Counted from the whole stretch's first letter, positions 48,001 to 54,000 are shown. The stretch: 63,987 bases of DNA, filler included, from GCA_964501035.1; 9 parts of 9 records of this genome joined end to end with filler, not necessarily neighbours in it; one strand, 5' to 3'. Made by a program: the numbers.

Positions 48001-51000
48001 AAATACCAGAATAAGGCTTATAGGAATTTGGATACATATTGGTTGCGACCAGAATATTCATTAATTATACAAAATTAGGTTTAATCGTAGGAGCATGTAC
48101 TGGTTTTTCTTCATCTTTTGTTTTGATAAATCTTCCGTACTCAACACCTAAAAATAGAGCAAAGAGGGTCCCACCCATGGGAGCCGTCACCACATGTCCC
48201 GCAAAGCAACTATACAAAAATATAAAATAAATGATCATGGCATGCCTGCCAGTATCAAACCGGAATAGAATAGGGAATAGGGTCCGAAGGATAGGGATGT
48301 ATACTAAAATAAACCCAGTGATCCCATAGGTTAAAAATATATCTATAAAATCCATCTCACTACCGGTTCTTCCAGCATATTCCATCCCAACTTTTTTCGA
48401 GCGCATGGCGGATCCAAATCCAAAGGCAATATTTTCTGGTTCTTTAAATATATTTTGAAATCCTGTATCTGCCCGAATTGCTCGAGTTCCAGATACGTAG
48501 GAATACCATCTCAATGGAGGGAATTTAATTTCACTATGTTTATTGAAAAAATTAATACTGTGTAAAGCACGATCCTGATATTTGTAAAAAAGAGAATTAT
48601 CAATAAATATAAGAGAATTAAGAGCACCGGTTAAAAATAAAACAACTGTTAGTGTAATCATGAGAGATGTCACAATTTTAAATAAAAGCTTATCATGAAC
48701 TTTGTACGCTAAAAAGTAAAATAGAAAAAAGGGAAAGATGAGAATCACGATAGACCCACTGAAAAAGAGCGCTAAAACTGCAACAGATACGTGGAAAATA
48801 TATACTATATTTTCTTTAATCTTATAGGTGAAATAGATTGTCAATGTGAATCCGAGAATGGCTGTTGAGTTTGAAGCATAAAAGAAACTTTTACTTGCCA
48901 TATAATAAATTGAGTAAGCATTGACTCCTACACCAGATATGTAGCCAAAAAAAATAGCTGAAGTAAAAATGATTAAGTTTGNNNNNNNNNNNNNNNNNNN
49001 NNNNNNNNNNNNNNNNNNNNNNNNNTTAATTAATTAANNNNNNNNNNNNNNNNNNNNNNNNNNNNNNNNNNNNNNNNNNNNAAAATTTGTTTTTTAAGGT
49101 TTGGGTTGCTTGATAATATTCAGATGAGCTAGTTTCTTGGGACGCCATTGGGACATAATTTGTCCCATGAGACGTAAAACTGAAATACTTAACTACCCGA
49201 TAGCAACAAACAAAAAAAGGGTCATTTCTCTTCGAGAAACAACCCTTAGTGCCGCGAGAGGGGGTCGAACCCCCACGCCGTAAAGCACTGGTTCCTAAGA
49301 CCAGCGTGTCTACCAATTCCACCATCGCGGCAAAATCCCTACTGAATAGGTCGCAAAATTTAGAACAAATTTCTATTTAGAAAATATATAATTTATGGTA
49401 AAATTTTAAACTTTTGATTTTCTTGCTAACCCGTGCAAACCCTATTGCAAAATCCAGTTTACCACTTGCACTATGTCAAGTACATTAACAGCTCCATCAA
49501 AATTGACATCTGCAATGCTAACCTCACAATCTGTAGGGGTGGTGGTAAGTAAAATGATATTGACCATACTAACAATATCTAGTACATTTAAATATCCATC
49601 GCTGTTAATATCCCCTTGCACATCAATATTGCAATCATTTTCAAGAAGGGATGTTATAATATCAATCATCCACTGGGTATCTATTTCATTATTTGCATAT
49701 TGAATAATTCCCTGCTGGTCAATAATAAAATCTCGGGGATACGGCGAACCATCATTGGGAAGATAATACATGTCGTAGGTTTCTCCACCCTGTACACCAC
49801 CTGGACTTCCTGGGTCAAACAGAATTGGGAACGTAATATTATTTTCTTCCACAAACCCATTGATTAGATTTGAATCTGAGGTATTTATAATTCCGAGTAC
49901 TTGTGCTTCTTGATTAAACTCTTGCCAAATGGCTGTTTCTAAATCCGATAACTCCGGACTACAGACAGGTCAGAGTGGTGAGAAAAATATAAGTACAACC
50001 ACTTCATCCAAATGATCTGATAACTGGTAATATCCTGTTCCATTGGCTACAATTTCAAGATTAAAGTCTGGTGCATCATCCCCTACATTTGCGCCAATGA
50101 TATTGCCATTGGTTTCACATTTTAATAATGACTCATCTGCATCATTACTAAAAATTTGATAACTACCAGACGCATTTAATGCACCTGCTGTATAGGTTAC
50201 TTCAATCGTTTGAGATTCACCAGCAGGAATGTTAGACAACTCGGTAGTTTCAAACTCACTATTGGTAGCAAAGGCATCAGAAATTATCGCTTCAGATTGA
50301 CCATTGTTTATAACTTCAAGCGTCATGGTATAGGATTGTCCATTTTCTACAAGTGGGAAGTTGAGTTCATAGGTACTTAAATCTAAATCCGCACCCAGAA
50401 TATTTCCATATTCAAATATTTGAACCGAACCCCATTCCGCTGAATATATAAATTGATTTTTAGATGTGATTGCCATGGGGCGACGAGTTGTATTCTTGTA
50501 TCCAATCAATTCAAGTGTACTTTCATTAAGAGAGATTACTTCAATATCATCCCAATCGCTCACAACAATTTTATCATCAATTATTGTTAGCCGATTCGCT
50601 AGTGCGGATGTATTATACACATCTACAATAGTTGCATTTTCAGAATCAATCCACGCAACTCCATCTGAACCTAAAGCCACGGCTAAAAATTCAGTTCCGT
50701 TGTTATCTTGCCCAAACATAACATCTTTTAAACTGTTTGTAAACGAAACTTCTTGGACAATCGTTGGTTCGTCAAAATTGCTAATATCTACAAATAACAA
50801 ATCTTGCTCGTCTGCAATATATGCGTGAGATTCATTCATGGCCACAGCCCAAGCATTATTGGTTGCTAAAGAATGTATCAAACTTGGGTTTTCAGGTGTT
50901 GCTACATCAAAAAACAAAACGCCATCTGTATGTGCACAAACCGCTAACGTGGTATTTGAAACATCCACGTTTTCTAGAGTCAAATTATTGGTATTATTGA

Positions 51001-54000
51001 TATAACCTAGAAAGTTAGGATTATTTGGATTGCTAAAATCAACCATAGCAACTCCATTTTTTGCAGTAAAATATGCAATCGATTGATAGCTTGTAACACA
51101 ATTTGGTTTTGAACCTCCACCACCCCCATTATTTGGGATGTTAAAATGTGCAATATGATTTAACACTTCTGGGTTTGAGATATCATATACTTCCACACCA
51201 CCAACCATCCCAACAACAATGAGAATATCATCCATAATATGGGTATCTAAAATATGGCTTGCTTCGGGGTTGTGGAAATCGTGCAGAGTTAAATTTAGTG
51301 GAAATACAAGTGATACATATGTTAACATAGTCCAAAAATGTTTCATTAAATCCCCATTACAAATCTATAACGAATGCGATTATGTCGTATTCCATGATGG
51401 TGTCTAAACCAGCGTTTCAACATTTTCTTTTCATGTCGTTTTAAATGTCGATGATGATTTATTACAATGACGGTATGGTCACCATCTGCATATTGATGAG
51501 ACGTAATATTTCTTCCCTTAACAAATGCTTCATCATTCGGATAATGATGATGGTGATGTGTGGTTGAACACGATGTAAAACACAATATACTCAAAAATAA
51601 AAGCAATAATTTCTTCATGATTTTTCCTTTCAAACTAAACTATTTGAAACGTAAACCAATTAAAAGTTAACTGCTAATAATAATATTAACCACTTGAATA
51701 ATGTCCAAAACATTGACAATTGAATCTCCATTCATATCAGCAGGTGGTGTTGCTTCAGCAGTTCCCATAACCATATTTACCATACTGACTACATCGAGAA
51801 TATTAATCACTTCATCACCATTGACATCACCCATTAAGAAATTCTCTTGTTCGAGATAGTCTGAAGGATATTTATGTGATCTGGCAATCATTGAAAATAA
51901 TCCTCCATTGTGTTCATAATCCCATACAATATTTCCATTTTCAGCAACTTCAAACATACGGGCTTCAGCTGCAACTGTTACAAACGTATTGCCGTTCTCT
52001 AAACGGAAAGCTCCACTCTGCATTTCTGATTCAAATCCACCTGTGTACATCCATTCCCAATTTTCTGGTCCGTAGGGTTGACCATCTTCAATAATATAGT
52101 TTCCATCTTCATCCATTGGCGGAGTAAACTCAATTAAAGCTGAGCTACTAAATGAATGTGCATTACTAAAACAAAGTAAATTTCCTTCACCAGGATATCC
52201 AGAATCTATCCAATTAATACCATGTTGGTCATTTAACAAATGGTTATTGGAATCACCTCTATCATAGTTTTGCGAATTGCCCCACCTGTATAGAAAATCA
52301 CCACCCTTTCCAGAATTTCCCCCACTATGTGATGCAGCTTCTTCGGTCGTTGTACTATGGTCAATAATATAAATCTCATCCATTGCTCGAGAAGACAATA
52401 CAATTTGATCAAGCTCTGCATTATATGAAATTGCATTAATATGAATCCAATCTGCATGCGCTCCACCTGGACCGCCCGAATTACCCACATTGCCTAAGTT
52501 AATGTTCATTAATTCGGGATGTTCAGAAATAACTCCATAATTTGGTTTAGAGGGGTCAACATCTTGTATAAGATGGTCCCATACATGCCACTCCCACACA
52601 ATATTCACATCATTAGTACCTACCATTTCCAATTCAAAAATGACTTCTCCCCACATTTGATTCAATGGGTTTCCTATATAGGTTCGACCTAAATCATATG
52701 CTTCCGAAGCTGACTTGCGTTCCCATGCAACGACCAGTAAATTCCCATTGGGAAGTGGTTCAATATCATGATGATGTTGAAAATCATTGTTAGAAATTTC
52801 ATATTCCCATAAAATATTTCCATCCCAATCCAAATAATGAAAACCACCACCTACACCACCATTTTCCATAGTTGGATTACTCACTCTGTAGGGATAAAAC
52901 ATGGTACTATCTGTCAATAAATATGCCATGCTTGCTGGTCCTCGGGAATGATCCCATGTATGCAACACATTTTCATTGGAATCCATCAATCTTGTAATTA
53001 TATCGTCATTTCCTCCTGGACCACTTGATTGCGGTGTAAATAGCACAAGTCCATCATAAATGTCCTGAGCAAATATGCTTGAAATGAATAATAATATAAT
53101 TTTAAACTTCATTTTTCTTTCCCCTTTTACTAATATCTAAATAGAAGCGAAGCAGCAGATAATCCTGCACCAGTACCTATCATTAAAATTTTATCACCTC
53201 GTTTAAATGGTTGTTTTTGATATTGCATCGTAAGTGCCATTGGGAGTGATGCAGCCACACAATTACCTGTTTGTGCAACCACATTTACTACTTTACTCTC
53301 GTCAAAACCACCATGTTTTGCATACGCTCTTACTGCCATATTGGATGCCTGATGTGGAATCACCCAATCAATATCATCATGAGATAACTTGCATTTTTCT
53401 AACATTTCTTCAATCATGACAGATACTTTTTTTCGAGCCAATTTATATACTTGAGGTCCCTTCATCGTAAATAAGTTATCTTCTAATCTCATCTTGGGTT
53501 CATGAGGAGGTAAATTCGTGCCGCCACCCCGCAATTCAGTAAGATCTGCTCCACTTGGCCATGTGTTCATTTTCCAATACAATAATTTAGAATTATCAGA
53601 TTGAGCGGGTGCTTCCACAATAACCGATGCGGAACCATCCCCCAATAATGCTGATGATTCAGGTTCATTCAGGTTGCGACCACGTGTTCCTCTATCAGAT
53701 GATACAACGAGAATGCGTTTATACACCCCATTGTGAATAAAATTGGCTGCTGTTTGGAAAGCAACAAGAAATGACAAACATGTGGTGTGAACAGTAAAAG
53801 AGGGAATGCTTTCAAATCCCAATTGTTTTTGAATGAACACAGATGTATCAGGTATCGCTTGTTTTCCAACTCCAGACGCATTGATTACTAAATCAGGTGG
53901 ACTGCCCTTACCTATTGCATCTTTGGAAGAAATTGCACCCATTTCATCTACATCAATTGTAGAAATTCTTTTTTCAAGTACACCCGTTCTGGTATTTATC

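What a model noticed while it worked through the whole genome (the two positions that open the first line are those of the whole stretch)
49442..51346. Dockerin-tethered extracellular selenoprotein: LVIVD propeller + AhpC/TSA(Sec) + dockerin, split by the gene caller
g01465 and g01464 are one 634-aa secreted protein read through an in-frame UGA: signal peptide, LVIVD beta-propeller, Ig-like domain, an AhpC/TSA redoxin domain whose active site reads U-P-V-C (selenocysteine at residue 459) and a C-terminal type-I dockerin. It is a selenoenzyme built to be docked on the cell-surface cohesin scaffold, an extracellular scaffold-bound thiol/selenol oxidoreductase.
Evidence so far: The frame stays open across the TGA that ends g01465 (C73 889-891, minus strand) and joins it to g01464. 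Pfam on the read-through product: AhpC-TSA 421-550 (E 9e-18), Redoxin, Dockerin_1 578-632 (E 7e-9), LVIVD, HYDIN-type Ig; the UGA takes the place of the first Cys of the CxxC-type motif. A GC-rich hairpin starts 12 nt after UGA. In 25 relatives searched, 19 orthologous matches (47-80% identity, open frames mostly 629-659 aa) in 17 genomes all carry exactly one in-frame TGA; no version without a stop was listed. Sec machinery: tRNA-Sec C2 9288-9380, SelA g00358, SelB g00357, SelD g00602.
(Added by a program. Inside this text positions count along the whole contig: they may not be those of the stretch shown here. "Call 12" and the like, gene names such as g00115 and contig names such as C1 are that model's own, and its searches are not shown. 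The text may have been shortened before it was handed on; [...] marks where a part breaks off. The agent that wrote the report below was given it as the finding of a first reader that could run no searches.)

Follow-up and report, generated by a model that had tools for sequence, protein, structure and literature searches.

The report
Secreted dockerin-bearing redoxin selenoprotein gene
Two neighbouring gene calls are really one gene for a secreted 634-residue protein whose redox centre contains selenocysteine and whose tail is a docking module for the cell surface; the selenoprotein family is already in print, but its full build and its docking tail are not.

Summary
Window 49442-51346 (-) is one 634-codon frame with a single in-frame TGA (49970-49972). 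It encodes a signal peptide, an LVIVD beta-propeller, an Ig-like domain, an AhpC/TSA redoxin domain with U459-P-V-C462, and a type I dockerin.

The TGA is a selenocysteine codon:
- It lies in the same column in 35 of 35 related genes, down to 37% identity.
- Distant homologues with the same propeller-Ig-redoxin build have Cys there.
- The hairpin 10 nt downstream (GUCCG-GAGUUAU-CGGAY) is invariant. Of 122 conserved degenerate codon columns, only three use a single codon in all sequences, and all three lie inside it.
- The genome has tRNA-Sec, selA, selB and selD.
- TGA is otherwise an ordinary stop.

The family is not new. Six ocean-survey reads with the same UPVCSPELSD motif are listed under "Prx-like 1" in Zhang and Gladyshev 2008. 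What I did not find in print is the full architecture, the dockerin, and the cohesin and type IX secretion setting.

Surface docking is plausible but not shown. The genome has 62 dockerin and 4 cohesin matches, and one cohesin carries a type IX secretion tail.

At least three more dockerin-bearing proteins in this genome also carry a conserved in-frame TGA.

The parts
49442..51346 (-). Whole selenoprotein gene: 634 codons plus stop, with one in-frame TGA
   Evidence: Orthologues in 33 of 61 genomes.
51299..51346 (-). N-terminal export signal, residues 1 to about 16 (MKHFWTMLTYVSLVFP). The cleavage site is inferred.
   Evidence: Hydrophobic N-terminus read. The structure model gives helix 2-13 followed by the first strand at 17. 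Orthologues have the same kind of N-terminus before a conserved LNLTL. No signal-peptide predictor was available.
50399..51298 (-). LVIVD-repeat beta-propeller, residues about 17-316
   Evidence: Pfam LVIVD 27.4 bits against a cut-off of 20.2. NCBIfam choice_anch_B is weak. The model is all-beta with pLDDT around 90. Foldseek's best matches are 7- and 8-bladed propellers, E 4e-14.
50099..50398 (-). Ig-like beta-sandwich, residues about 317-416
   Evidence: Pfam HYDIN_VesB_CFA65-like_Ig 27.1 bits against 25.5, and CARDB weak. NCBIfam choice_anch_D is below its cut-off. Strands 321-416 in the model.
49643..50086 (-). AhpC/TSA (redoxin, thioredoxin-fold) domain, residues 421-568, active site U459-P-V-C462
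   Evidence: Pfam AhpC-TSA 64.8 bits against 26, Redoxin 50.3 against 26.6. Nearest solved chains by sequence are 2LS5, 4PQ1 and ResA. In the model, helix 462-474 begins at the motif.
49970..49972 (-). UGA codon read as selenocysteine, residue 459
   Evidence: Same column in 35 of 35 related genes. Cys in distant homologues. Unchanged in two bridging contigs from other samples.
49961..49963 (-). Codon of Cys462, the partner residue of the U-x-x-C motif
   Evidence: Invariant column. The codon varies TGT/TGC 15:14.
49943..49959 (-). Putative SECIS mini-hairpin GUCCG-GAGUUAU-CGGAU. In this window it extends to a longer stem, 49938-49965.
   Evidence: Bases TCCGGAGTT.TCGGA are invariant in 30 of 30 orthologues and in 5 of 5 further relatives. 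RNAalifold gives a 6-pair consensus. The only 3 single-codon columns out of 122 lie here. The window's own fold is -13.1 kcal/mol.
49451..49615 (-). Type I dockerin, residues 578-632, with two calcium-loop repeats (DINSDGYLNVLDIV and DVNFDGAVNVLDIV)
   Evidence: Pfam Dockerin_1 36.2 bits against 22.9. Repeats read. The model has helices 588-598, 606-612 and 622-633.
51346..51633 (-). Upstream 95-codon ORF for a His-rich putative lipoprotein. Its stop overlaps the selenoprotein start (ATGA).
   Evidence: No Pfam match. Relatives found directly upstream in 4 of 30 loci by BLAST, 5 of 30 by clustering.
51667..53112 (-). Upstream gene for an arylsulfotransferase-like (ASST) protein with its own dockerin
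   Evidence: Pfam Arylsulfotrans 53.8 bits, Dockerin_1 29.6 bits. Directly upstream on the same strand in 10 of 30 loci.

Best explanation
Shown by the sequence data. Window 49442-51346 (-) is one gene. Its single in-frame UGA (49970-49972) is decoded as selenocysteine by the organism's SelA/SelB/SelD/tRNA-Sec system. A 17-nt hairpin starting 10 nt downstream (GUCCG-GAGUUAU-CGGAY), embedded in codons S463-D468, directs this decoding. The product has an export signal, a 7-bladed LVIVD propeller, an Ig-like sandwich, a thioredoxin-fold redoxin domain with the redox pair Sec459/Cys462 at the start of a helix, and a type I dockerin.

Inferred. The redoxin domain works like the extracytoplasmic TlpA/ResA class of thiol:disulfide oxidoreductases. 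The exposed selenolate attacks a substrate disulfide or another oxidised sulfur or selenium species. Cys462 resolves the mixed selenosulfide, leaving an internal Se-S bond that must be re-reduced (odds about 0.6, against about 0.2 for a peroxidase-type reaction). The propeller and Ig domains travel with this redoxin domain in distant Cys-containing homologues too, so they probably hold the substrate.

Inferred. After export the dockerin ties the protein to one of the genome's cohesin modules, one of which is itself fixed to the cell surface by a type IX secretion tail (odds about 0.55). Relatives carry a type IX tail directly in place of the dockerin. Sec rather than Cys would keep an exposed catalytic residue from irreversible over-oxidation outside the cell. 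That argument comes from general selenium chemistry and was not tested here.

The confidence given is for the shown core (one gene, Sec at 459, this domain build). The inferred steps carry their own lower odds as stated.
For: One frame with one TGA. Domain matches are above Pfam cut-offs.

TGA conservation: 35 of 36 match rows in 33 of 61 genomes have exactly one TGA, and the remaining row does not reach the site. The TGA is in the same column with U-P-V-C in 30 of 30 loci and in 5 of 5 further relatives.

Hairpin: TCCGGAGTT.TCGGA is invariant and RNAalifold gives a 6-pair consensus. Among 122 conserved degenerate codon columns of 29 orthologues, only 3 use one codon throughout: P464 CCG, E465 GAG and S467 TCG. 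L466 is TTA in 26 of 28. The median codon entropy is 1.0 bit.

Sec/Cys pair: all 10 distant homologues fetched have Cys at the U column. Seven of them are 623-712 aa proteins, and 6 of those 7 match both LVIVD and AhpC-TSA. P0127 aligns over 538 residues, E 8e-38, with WCPHC opposite LUPVC.

Close relatives in protein libraries are cut at the site or show W where a caller read TGA as Trp.

Machinery: tRNA-Sec, SelA, SelB, SelD. TGA ends 141 of 776 long ORFs, so it is a normal stop here.

Other candidate selenoprotein genes of this genome have a hairpin at the same distance, with a G 18-20 nt after UGA in the apical loop. This is my reading of the folds.

Thioredoxin-fold class: the nearest solved chains are 2LS5, 4PQ1 and ResA, and NCBIfam's best match is ResA.

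Surface setting: 62 dockerin and 4 cohesin matches. The C29 protein is signal + cohesin + type IX tail. SprA is present. Relatives of the same family end in a type IX tail instead of a dockerin.

Print: the same motif is listed as the Sec family 'Prx-like 1'.
Against: No expression, selenium incorporation or activity data exist.

The hairpin shows no compensatory change (0 of 6 pairs), so its support is conservation, not covariation. It is short, and the window's 60-nt fold is not unusual against shuffles (z -1.17).

The peptide PELSD-x-E also occurs in one Cys homologue (P0106), so part of the conservation is at protein level.

Membership in the ResA subfamily fails NCBIfam's cut-off (33.5 against 170 bits).

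No reductant is known for a protein outside the outer membrane. The genome's one DsbD-type match would serve a periplasmic protein.

How a dockerin protein without a type IX tail crosses the outer membrane is unknown.
Confidence: 0.85

Rival explanations
1. The TGA is a true stop. The region holds two genes, or a decayed gene: a propeller-Ig protein ending inside a truncated redoxin domain, followed by a small dockerin protein.
For: Table 11 gives two ORFs. Gene callers in public collections split the relatives in the same way.
Against: The stop would cut a thioredoxin fold exactly at its catalytic residue. The frame, the TGA column and both halves are conserved in 35 of 35 relatives down to 37% identity. 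Cys homologues read straight through. Synonymous sites are frozen just downstream. The full Sec machinery is present.
Confidence: 0.02
2. The organism reads TGA as an ordinary amino acid (Trp or Gly, as in codes 4 or 25), so residue 459 is not Sec.
For: Several database entries for relatives show W at the site.
Against: TGA ends 141 of 776 long ORFs in this genome. SelA and SelB frames have no internal stops. Trp would abolish a CxxC-type centre, whereas homologues have Cys. A tRNA-Sec with anticodon tca is present.
Confidence: 0.02
3. The gene is a true selenoprotein, but the chemistry is peroxide reduction (peroxiredoxin-like) rather than disulfide exchange.
For: The best Pfam family is AhpC/TSA. 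Weak matches exist to AhpE-type peroxiredoxins and to the thiol peroxidase PRK09437. Sec is a good peroxide nucleophile (general knowledge).
Against: In Sec-containing peroxiredoxins the motif is TxxU, with Sec in the second position (Table 1 of PMC13188914, passages seen). Here Sec is in the first position and there is no Thr, as in CxxC oxidoreductases. The best solved and NCBIfam matches are the ResA/TlpA kind.
Confidence: 0.2
4. The gene is a true selenoprotein, but it stays in the periplasm and is recycled by the DsbD-type membrane reductase. On this view the dockerin-like tail serves calcium binding or assembly there, not surface display.
For: A DsbD_TM protein is encoded. TlpA/ResA-type proteins are normally recycled this way (established knowledge). 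The gene has no type IX tail of its own.
Against: Family members replace the dockerin with a type IX secretion tail. A cohesin with such a tail is encoded. The genome has 62 dockerin matches on proteins of many kinds, which suggests a general display system.
Confidence: 0.25
5. The protein is a dedicated folding or redox partner of the ASST-like dockerin protein encoded just upstream. The analogy is the DsbL/DsbI pair encoded beside assT in uropathogenic E. coli (recalled, not checked here).
For: The ASST-like dockerin gene lies directly upstream on the same strand in 10 of 30 loci.
Against: The adjacency is missing in 20 of 30 loci, although only 1.5 kb upstream was held. The window's ASST-like protein has a single Cys (read), so it has no disulfide to form. 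Distant Cys homologues keep the propeller-Ig-redoxin unit, which argues for a self-contained function.
Confidence: 0.07

Closest known systems
'Prx-like 1' selenoproteins (pfam00578, UxxC) of the Global Ocean Sampling selenoproteome (Zhang and Gladyshev 2008, PMC2398784). The same class appears as 'Prx-like thiol:disulfide oxidoreductase' in Table 1 of PMC13188914.
   Same: Six reads in supplementary file 3 under '#Prx-like 1' carry the same U-P-V-C-S-P-E-L-S-D motif and redoxin domain. Two of them end in a dockerin-like tail, one in leucine-rich repeats and one in a type IX tail.
   Different: Those are read-length fragments filed by Pfam family and motif. The propeller-Ig N-terminus, the dockerin identity, the cohesin setting and the conserved hairpin are not described in the sections I read (section 9, plus passages from sections 6, 7, 8, 11 and 17).
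ResA / TlpA-type extracytoplasmic thiol-disulfide oxidoreductases (for example B. subtilis ResA, PDB 3C71 and 1ST9)
   Same: Thioredoxin fold with a CxxC-type motif at a helix start. They are exported. They are the nearest named solved relatives (E 8.7e-6) and the best NCBIfam model.
   Different: Sec replaces the first Cys. The score is far below the ResA subfamily cut-off (33.5 against 170 bits). There is a long insert at 511-533. The domain is fused behind a propeller and an Ig domain and ahead of a dockerin. It has no membrane anchor.
Cys-containing LVIVD-Ig-redoxin proteins from G+C-rich organisms (P0119, P0124, P0127, P0140, P0142, P0145, P0149)
   Same: Same overall length, with the redoxin domain at the C-terminal end. 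Six of the 7 match both LVIVD and AhpC-TSA in Pfam; P0149 matches only AhpC-TSA and Redoxin. The Ig domain reaches the Pfam threshold only in P0119. The redoxin domain is 31-38% identical. P0127 is 25% identical over 538 residues.
   Different: They have Cys, not Sec, and no dockerin. The protein ends right after the redoxin domain.
[quoted passage not shown]
   Same: A UxxC redoxin selenoprotein fused to a C-terminal module. The printed sequence of that module reads like thrombospondin-type repeats plus a dockerin (my reading of the passage). The window's genome has such a gene at C27.
   Different: It is a different redoxin subfamily (W-U-G-P-C) with no propeller. The authors called the module unknown.
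Cellulosomal type I dockerin enzymes of Clostridia
   Same: A C-terminal duplicated calcium-loop dockerin (Pfam PF00404), with cohesins encoded in the same genome.
   Different: The cargo is a redox selenoprotein, not a glycoside hydrolase. The host is a marine bacterium whose relatives are named Candidatus Marinimicrobia in one source record. One cohesin is anchored by a type IX tail rather than by an S-layer homology or sortase signal.

Membership tests
Bacterial selenoprotein gene (UGA decoded as Sec) | In-frame UGA conserved in orthologues, with coding sequence conserved on both sides | tested here: met
   35 of 35 related genes spanning the site, at 37-80% identity
Bacterial selenoprotein gene (UGA decoded as Sec) | Homologues with Cys aligned to the UGA | tested here: met
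   10 of 10 distant homologues fetched have Cys there. Pairwise alignment.
Bacterial selenoprotein gene (UGA decoded as Sec) | SECIS hairpin just downstream of the UGA | tested here: met
   A conserved 5-6 bp hairpin starts 10 nt after the UGA. Synonymous sites are frozen only there. No covariation (0 of 6 pairs), and SelB binding could not be tested.
Bacterial selenoprotein gene (UGA decoded as Sec) | selA, selB, selD and tRNA-Sec in the genome | tested here: met
Bacterial selenoprotein gene (UGA decoded as Sec) | Selenium found in the protein | not testable with these tools
   No proteomic or labelling data available
Prx-like thiol:disulfide oxidoreductase selenoproteins (PF00578, UxxC; 'Prx-like 1') | PF00578 match and a UxxC motif | tested here: met
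   64.8 bits against a cut-off of 26, motif U-P-V-C. Same-motif reads are listed in that family.
ResA subfamily (NCBIfam NF002854) / TlpA-like | Score above the subfamily cut-off | tested here: not met
   33.5 bits against 170. It resembles the class but is not a ResA orthologue.
Typical peroxiredoxin (Prx) | T/S-x-x-C(U) motif with the peroxidatic residue in the second position | tested here: not met
   The motif is U-P-V-C with Leu before it and no Thr. The TxxU definition for Sec-Prx is taken from Table 1 of PMC13188914.
Type I dockerin (PF00404) | Pfam match above the cut-off, with two calcium-loop repeats | tested here: met
   36.2 bits against 22.9. Two D-x-N-x-D-G-x-x-N-x-x-D repeats read.
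Type I dockerin (PF00404) | Binds a cohesin of the same organism | not testable with these tools
   Cohesins are present. The one complex prediction gave no verdict (see Tried and rejected).
LVIVD-repeat beta-propeller (PF08309) | Repeat match and a propeller fold | tested here: met
   27.4 bits against 20.2. Model pLDDT is around 90 over residues 17-316. Foldseek's top hits are propellers.

The most novel reading that the evidence does not exclude
This gene may be one element of a cell-surface selenium-based redox layer. In this lineage at least four conserved protein families combine a dockerin with an in-frame, conserved UGA: this propeller-redoxin, two other UxxC redoxin types, and a beta-helix protein with C-x-x-U that I did not find in the published lists I checked. 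All would hang on cohesins or type IX anchors outside the cell. There they would capture and reduce or isomerise extracellular substrates such as disulfide-bonded proteins or peptides, or sulfur and selenium species. Sec would be chosen because an exposed catalytic residue outside the cell must survive oxidants without repair enzymes.
Probability: 0.25. Interest if true: 0.8.

Novelty: new variant of a known kind. Interest (0 to 1): 0.5.

Why it matters
Predicted bacterial selenoproteins are mostly treated as cytoplasmic or periplasmic redox enzymes. A conserved Sec enzyme with a substrate-holding propeller and a docking tail would place selenium chemistry on the outside of an abundant group of marine bacteria. 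It would also show that cohesin-dockerin display carries redox enzymes as well as glycoside hydrolases.

There is a practical point too. Gene callers split or mistranslate this family, ending it at the Sec codon or writing W there. Its members are therefore mis-annotated in public collections. The invariant 15-nt element could serve as a search handle for them.

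Tried and rejected
- **Complex prediction.** I folded the C29 cohesin (residues 24-172) with the dockerin (residues 573-634). The result was no verdict (score 0.26, mark 0.34). It counts neither for nor against binding.
- **Sequencing runs.** No RNA holder is listed. One run labelled metatranscriptomic but flagged as probably DNA (X8) gave only a 124-nt adapter-flanked piece at 50025-50148 and a 220-nt piece. 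This says nothing about expression.
- **Rfam.** A permissive scan of 49082-51700 found only a tRNA (49250-49331) and two chance-level hits. No SECIS family matched.
- **Covariation.** None was found in the hairpin. Five more distant relatives did not change this.
- **Genome-wide selenoprotein ranking.** A codon-usage score did not separate real genes from antisense frames, so I picked candidates by motif, length and hairpin by eye. C20:2487-3617 was rejected: its TGA is the stop of a sigma-factor gene that overlaps the start of the next gene. C34, C19, C53, C107, C12 and C4 were dropped as low-complexity or antisense-looking frames without hairpins.
- **Foldseek.** The whole model matched only generic propellers and gave no functional lead.
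- **Literature.** 'selenoprotein' + 'dockerin' gave 2 unrelated papers. 'selenoprotein' + 'LVIVD' gave 0. 'Marinimicrobia' + 'dockerin' gave 0. 'Marinimicrobia' + 'selenocysteine' gave 5, 4 of them listed, none on this protein judging by title and abstract. 'selenoprotein' + 'signal peptide' + 'bacterial' + 'extracytoplasmic' gave 3 unrelated papers.

Full report
**What is in the sequence.** On the minus strand, table 11 gives a 458-codon ORF (49970..51346) that ends in TGA, and a 136-codon ORF (49442..49852) in the same frame. Reading TGA through joins them into one 634-codon frame with a single TGA. The codon lies at 49972-49970 and is followed by CCT GTC TGT, so the peptide reads ...FFSPL-U-PVC-SPELSD....

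Pfam on the read-through product gives:
- AhpC-TSA 421-550 (64.8 bits, cut-off 26)
- Redoxin 421-557
- Dockerin_1 578-632 (36.2 bits, cut-off 22.9)
- LVIVD 164-199
- a HYDIN-type Ig domain 320-390

The window is a chain of contigs. This gene lies on contig C73 of a 1.87-Mb, 167-contig assembly that is 95.7% complete. G+C is 33.8%.

**Is the TGA a selenocysteine codon?** Five lines of evidence agree.

1. *Conservation.* A search of 60 relatives plus the genome itself found the gene in 33 of 61 genomes, as 36 match rows. Of these, 35 rows carry exactly one TGA. The remaining row is an N-terminal piece (residues 11-300) that does not reach the site. In the 30 loci fetched, the TGA is in the same column and the motif is always U-P-V-C. 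Five more distant copies, down to 37% identity and in another family of the order, show the same.

2. *A Sec/Cys pair.* In the library of 1.84 billion representative proteins, close relatives are all cut at the site. Fragments end at query position 53/54 or start at 57, 65 or 79, where U is position 55. Alternatively they show W where a gene caller read TGA as Trp. Of the nine long relatives from the other library that span the site, eight have W and one has R. All 10 distant homologues fetched have Cys at that column. Seven are 623-712 residues long with the redoxin domain at the C-terminal end, and 6 of those 7 match both LVIVD and AhpC-TSA in Pfam. P0127 aligns to the window protein over 538 residues (E 8e-38), with FFATWCPHC opposite FFSPLUPVC.

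3. *An RNA element.* The 15 bases TCCGGAGTT.TCGGA, beginning 11 nt after the TGA, are identical in 30 of 30 orthologues except for one loop base. They are also kept in the five further copies. RNAalifold draws a 6-pair hairpin, G14-Y30 to G19-U25 counted from the T of TGA. No pair shows a compensatory change, so the case rests on conservation. I tested that directly. Among 122 codon columns that are at least 90% conserved in amino acid and degenerate, only three use a single codon in all 29 orthologues: Pro464 CCG, Glu465 GAG and Ser467 TCG. All three lie inside the hairpin. Leu466 is TTA in 26 of 28. The flanking Pro460, Val461, Cys462 and Asp468 vary freely, and the median codon entropy is 1.0 bit. 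In the window the stem extends further (-13.1 kcal/mol), although this 60-nt fold is not unusual against shuffles (z -1.17).

4. *Machinery.* The genome has tRNA-Sec (65.8 bits, anticodon tca), SelA, SelB and SelD. SelD itself has an in-frame TGA.

5. *TGA is otherwise a stop.* It ends 141 of 776 long ORFs, so this is not a TGA-sense genetic code.

In addition, two metagenome contigs from two other studies bridge the codon without change, while differing at 9 and 17 other places.

**Other selenoprotein candidates in the same genome.** These give an internal comparison. By motif, frame length and hairpin I picked C27, C10, C8, C18, C59 and C41. In the minimum-energy folds, the apical loop is AGUUA (this gene), GUU (C41, C8), GUCU (C59) and UGGAU (C18). 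For C10 and C27 an alternative hairpin gives GUU and AGUUC. The loop G lies 18-20 nt after the UGA in all but C27. This is my reading of a small set. It fits one SelB recognising a G-U at a fixed distance, as described for E. coli fdhF (recalled, not checked).

**What kind of protein.** The structure model (29-sequence alignment, mean pLDDT 86.2, pTM 0.70) shows four parts:
- an N-terminal helix (2-13)
- an all-beta region 17-316 that Foldseek matches to 7- and 8-bladed propellers
- a beta-sandwich 321-416
- an alpha/beta domain in which helix 462-474 starts at the U-x-x-C motif, followed by three short helices of the dockerin

By sequence, the nearest solved chains to the redoxin domain are 2LS5, 4PQ1 and B. 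subtilis ResA (E 2e-7 to 9e-6). The best NCBIfam model is ResA, far below its cut-off. There are also weak 'choice-of-anchor' B and D hits on the propeller and Ig parts.

Sec occupies the first position of a CxxC-type motif. Sec-containing peroxiredoxins are listed as TxxU instead (Table 1 of PMC13188914, passages seen). I therefore read the domain as a thiol:disulfide (selenosulfide) oxidoreductase rather than a peroxidase. This is an inference.

**Location.** The N-terminus looks like an export signal; no predictor was available. The tail is a two-repeat dockerin.

- The genome has 62 dockerin matches.
- It has four cohesin modules in three frames. One frame is a 251-residue protein made of signal, cohesin and type IX secretion tail. 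Another combines cohesin, leucine-rich repeats and a dockerin.
- There are 33 type IX tails, and SprA is present.

Members of this same redoxin family in public data end in a type IX tail, in leucine-rich repeats plus a type IX tail, or in a dockerin. This swapping of anchors argues for a cell-surface or extracellular location. Binding to a cohesin is not shown. A DsbD-type membrane reductase is encoded, so a periplasmic life with a conventional electron supply remains a rival.

**Neighbours.** The gene's ATG overlaps the stop of a 95-codon ORF for a His-rich putative lipoprotein (51346..51633). Upstream of that lies an arylsulfotransferase-like gene with its own dockerin (51667..53112). The ASST-like gene sits directly upstream in 10 of 30 loci. 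By BLAST the small ORF does so in 4 of 30 (5 of 30 by clustering). Only 1.5 kb of upstream flank was held. The ASST-like protein has one Cys only, which speaks against a dedicated disulfide-forming partnership.

**What is known.** Supplementary file 3 of Zhang and Gladyshev 2008 (PMC2398784) lists six reads with UPVCSPELSD under '#Prx-like 1'. Among them are dockerin-ended, leucine-rich-repeat-ended and type IX-ended forms. Of that paper I read section 9, passages from sections 6, 7, 8, 11 and 17, and supplement passages. [quoted passage not shown]

The 2026 review PMC13188914 lists 'Prx-like thiol:disulfide oxidoreductase, PF00578, UxxC' as predicted with high confidence (passages). So the Sec family itself is in print. 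I did not find the propeller-Ig-redoxin-dockerin architecture, the dockerin assignment or the cohesin setting in the searches.

**Verdict.** This is a real selenoprotein gene that the gene caller split. It belongs to a known Sec family (Prx-like, UxxC), in an architecture and surface-display setting not described before. The mechanism beyond Sec insertion is inferred.

Noticed in passing
L046:1-912 (= G000:C10:3568-4482, + strand): A secreted right-handed beta-helix (Pfam Beta_helix/NosD) protein with a C-terminal dockerin and an in-frame TGA in E-N-C-P-N-U-G. All 34 match rows spanning the site in 41 genomes carry one TGA. Its hairpin GGACUCC-GUU-GGAGCCC shows one compensatory U-A to A-U change in L062. 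The motif CPNU is absent from the 2008 ocean-survey sequence file. The words beta-helix, NosD and PF13229 are absent from the 2026 review text. It may be an unlisted selenoprotein family.
   Followed up: partly
L045:1-1587 (= G000:C27:1861-3450, + strand) and G000:C27:369-1862: A redoxin with W-U-G-P-C, followed by thrombospondin-like repeats, a dockerin-like module and a type IX tail. The TGA is conserved in many relatives. A tandem paralogue, 77% identical, has no TGA, which would make a Sec/non-Sec pair side by side. It matches the 2008 paper's 'Prx-like 3/Unknown_3' type.
   Followed up: partly
L047:1-1251 (= G000:C8:36657-37910, + strand): A secreted protein with a dockerin in the middle and a C-terminal G-U-S-T-C redoxin-like part. 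The TGA is conserved in the 22 best full-length rows. A near-identical architecture is printed in the 2008 supplement.
   Followed up: partly
L048 (C18:4465-5520, -), L049 (C59:8387-9541, +), L050 (C41:12208-12966, +), L056:1486-2529: Further candidate selenoprotein genes: a Thioredoxin_2 + TPR lipoprotein with T-U-P-W-C, a secreted protein with C-G-U, a GRDB-like protein with U-P-M-C, and SelD with G-A-G-U-A-C-K.
   Followed up: partly
P0005 (protein): One relative in a public collection has Arg (N-R-P-V-C) where all others have TGA or W. Its closest genome copy (L034) has TGA. This could be a CGA variant, an error or a dead allele. Not resolved.
   Followed up: no
window 49923-49973: In metagenome run X3, six short contigs match only this 50-nt stretch (TGA plus hairpin) at 90-95% likeness and then run on unlike. 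This is as if many diverged family members in that sample share just this element.
   Followed up: no
L012:1408-2163 (G000:C29): A 251-residue protein made only of a signal peptide, one cohesin and a type IX secretion tail. It is a minimal surface anchor for dockerin proteins.
   Followed up: partly
window 51346-51633 (-): A 95-codon ORF for a His-rich putative lipoprotein (lipobox-like FTSC, runs of His) with no Pfam match. Its stop overlaps the selenoprotein start codon.
   Followed up: partly
window 49026-49331: The window is stitched from contigs: translations show a run of X near 49040-49081, and contig C73 begins at 49082. A tRNA gene lies at 49250-49331 (-) just downstream of the selenoprotein gene. 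The 99-codon ORF over it is a spurious read of the tRNA, and the same peptide starts database entry P0002.
   Followed up: partly
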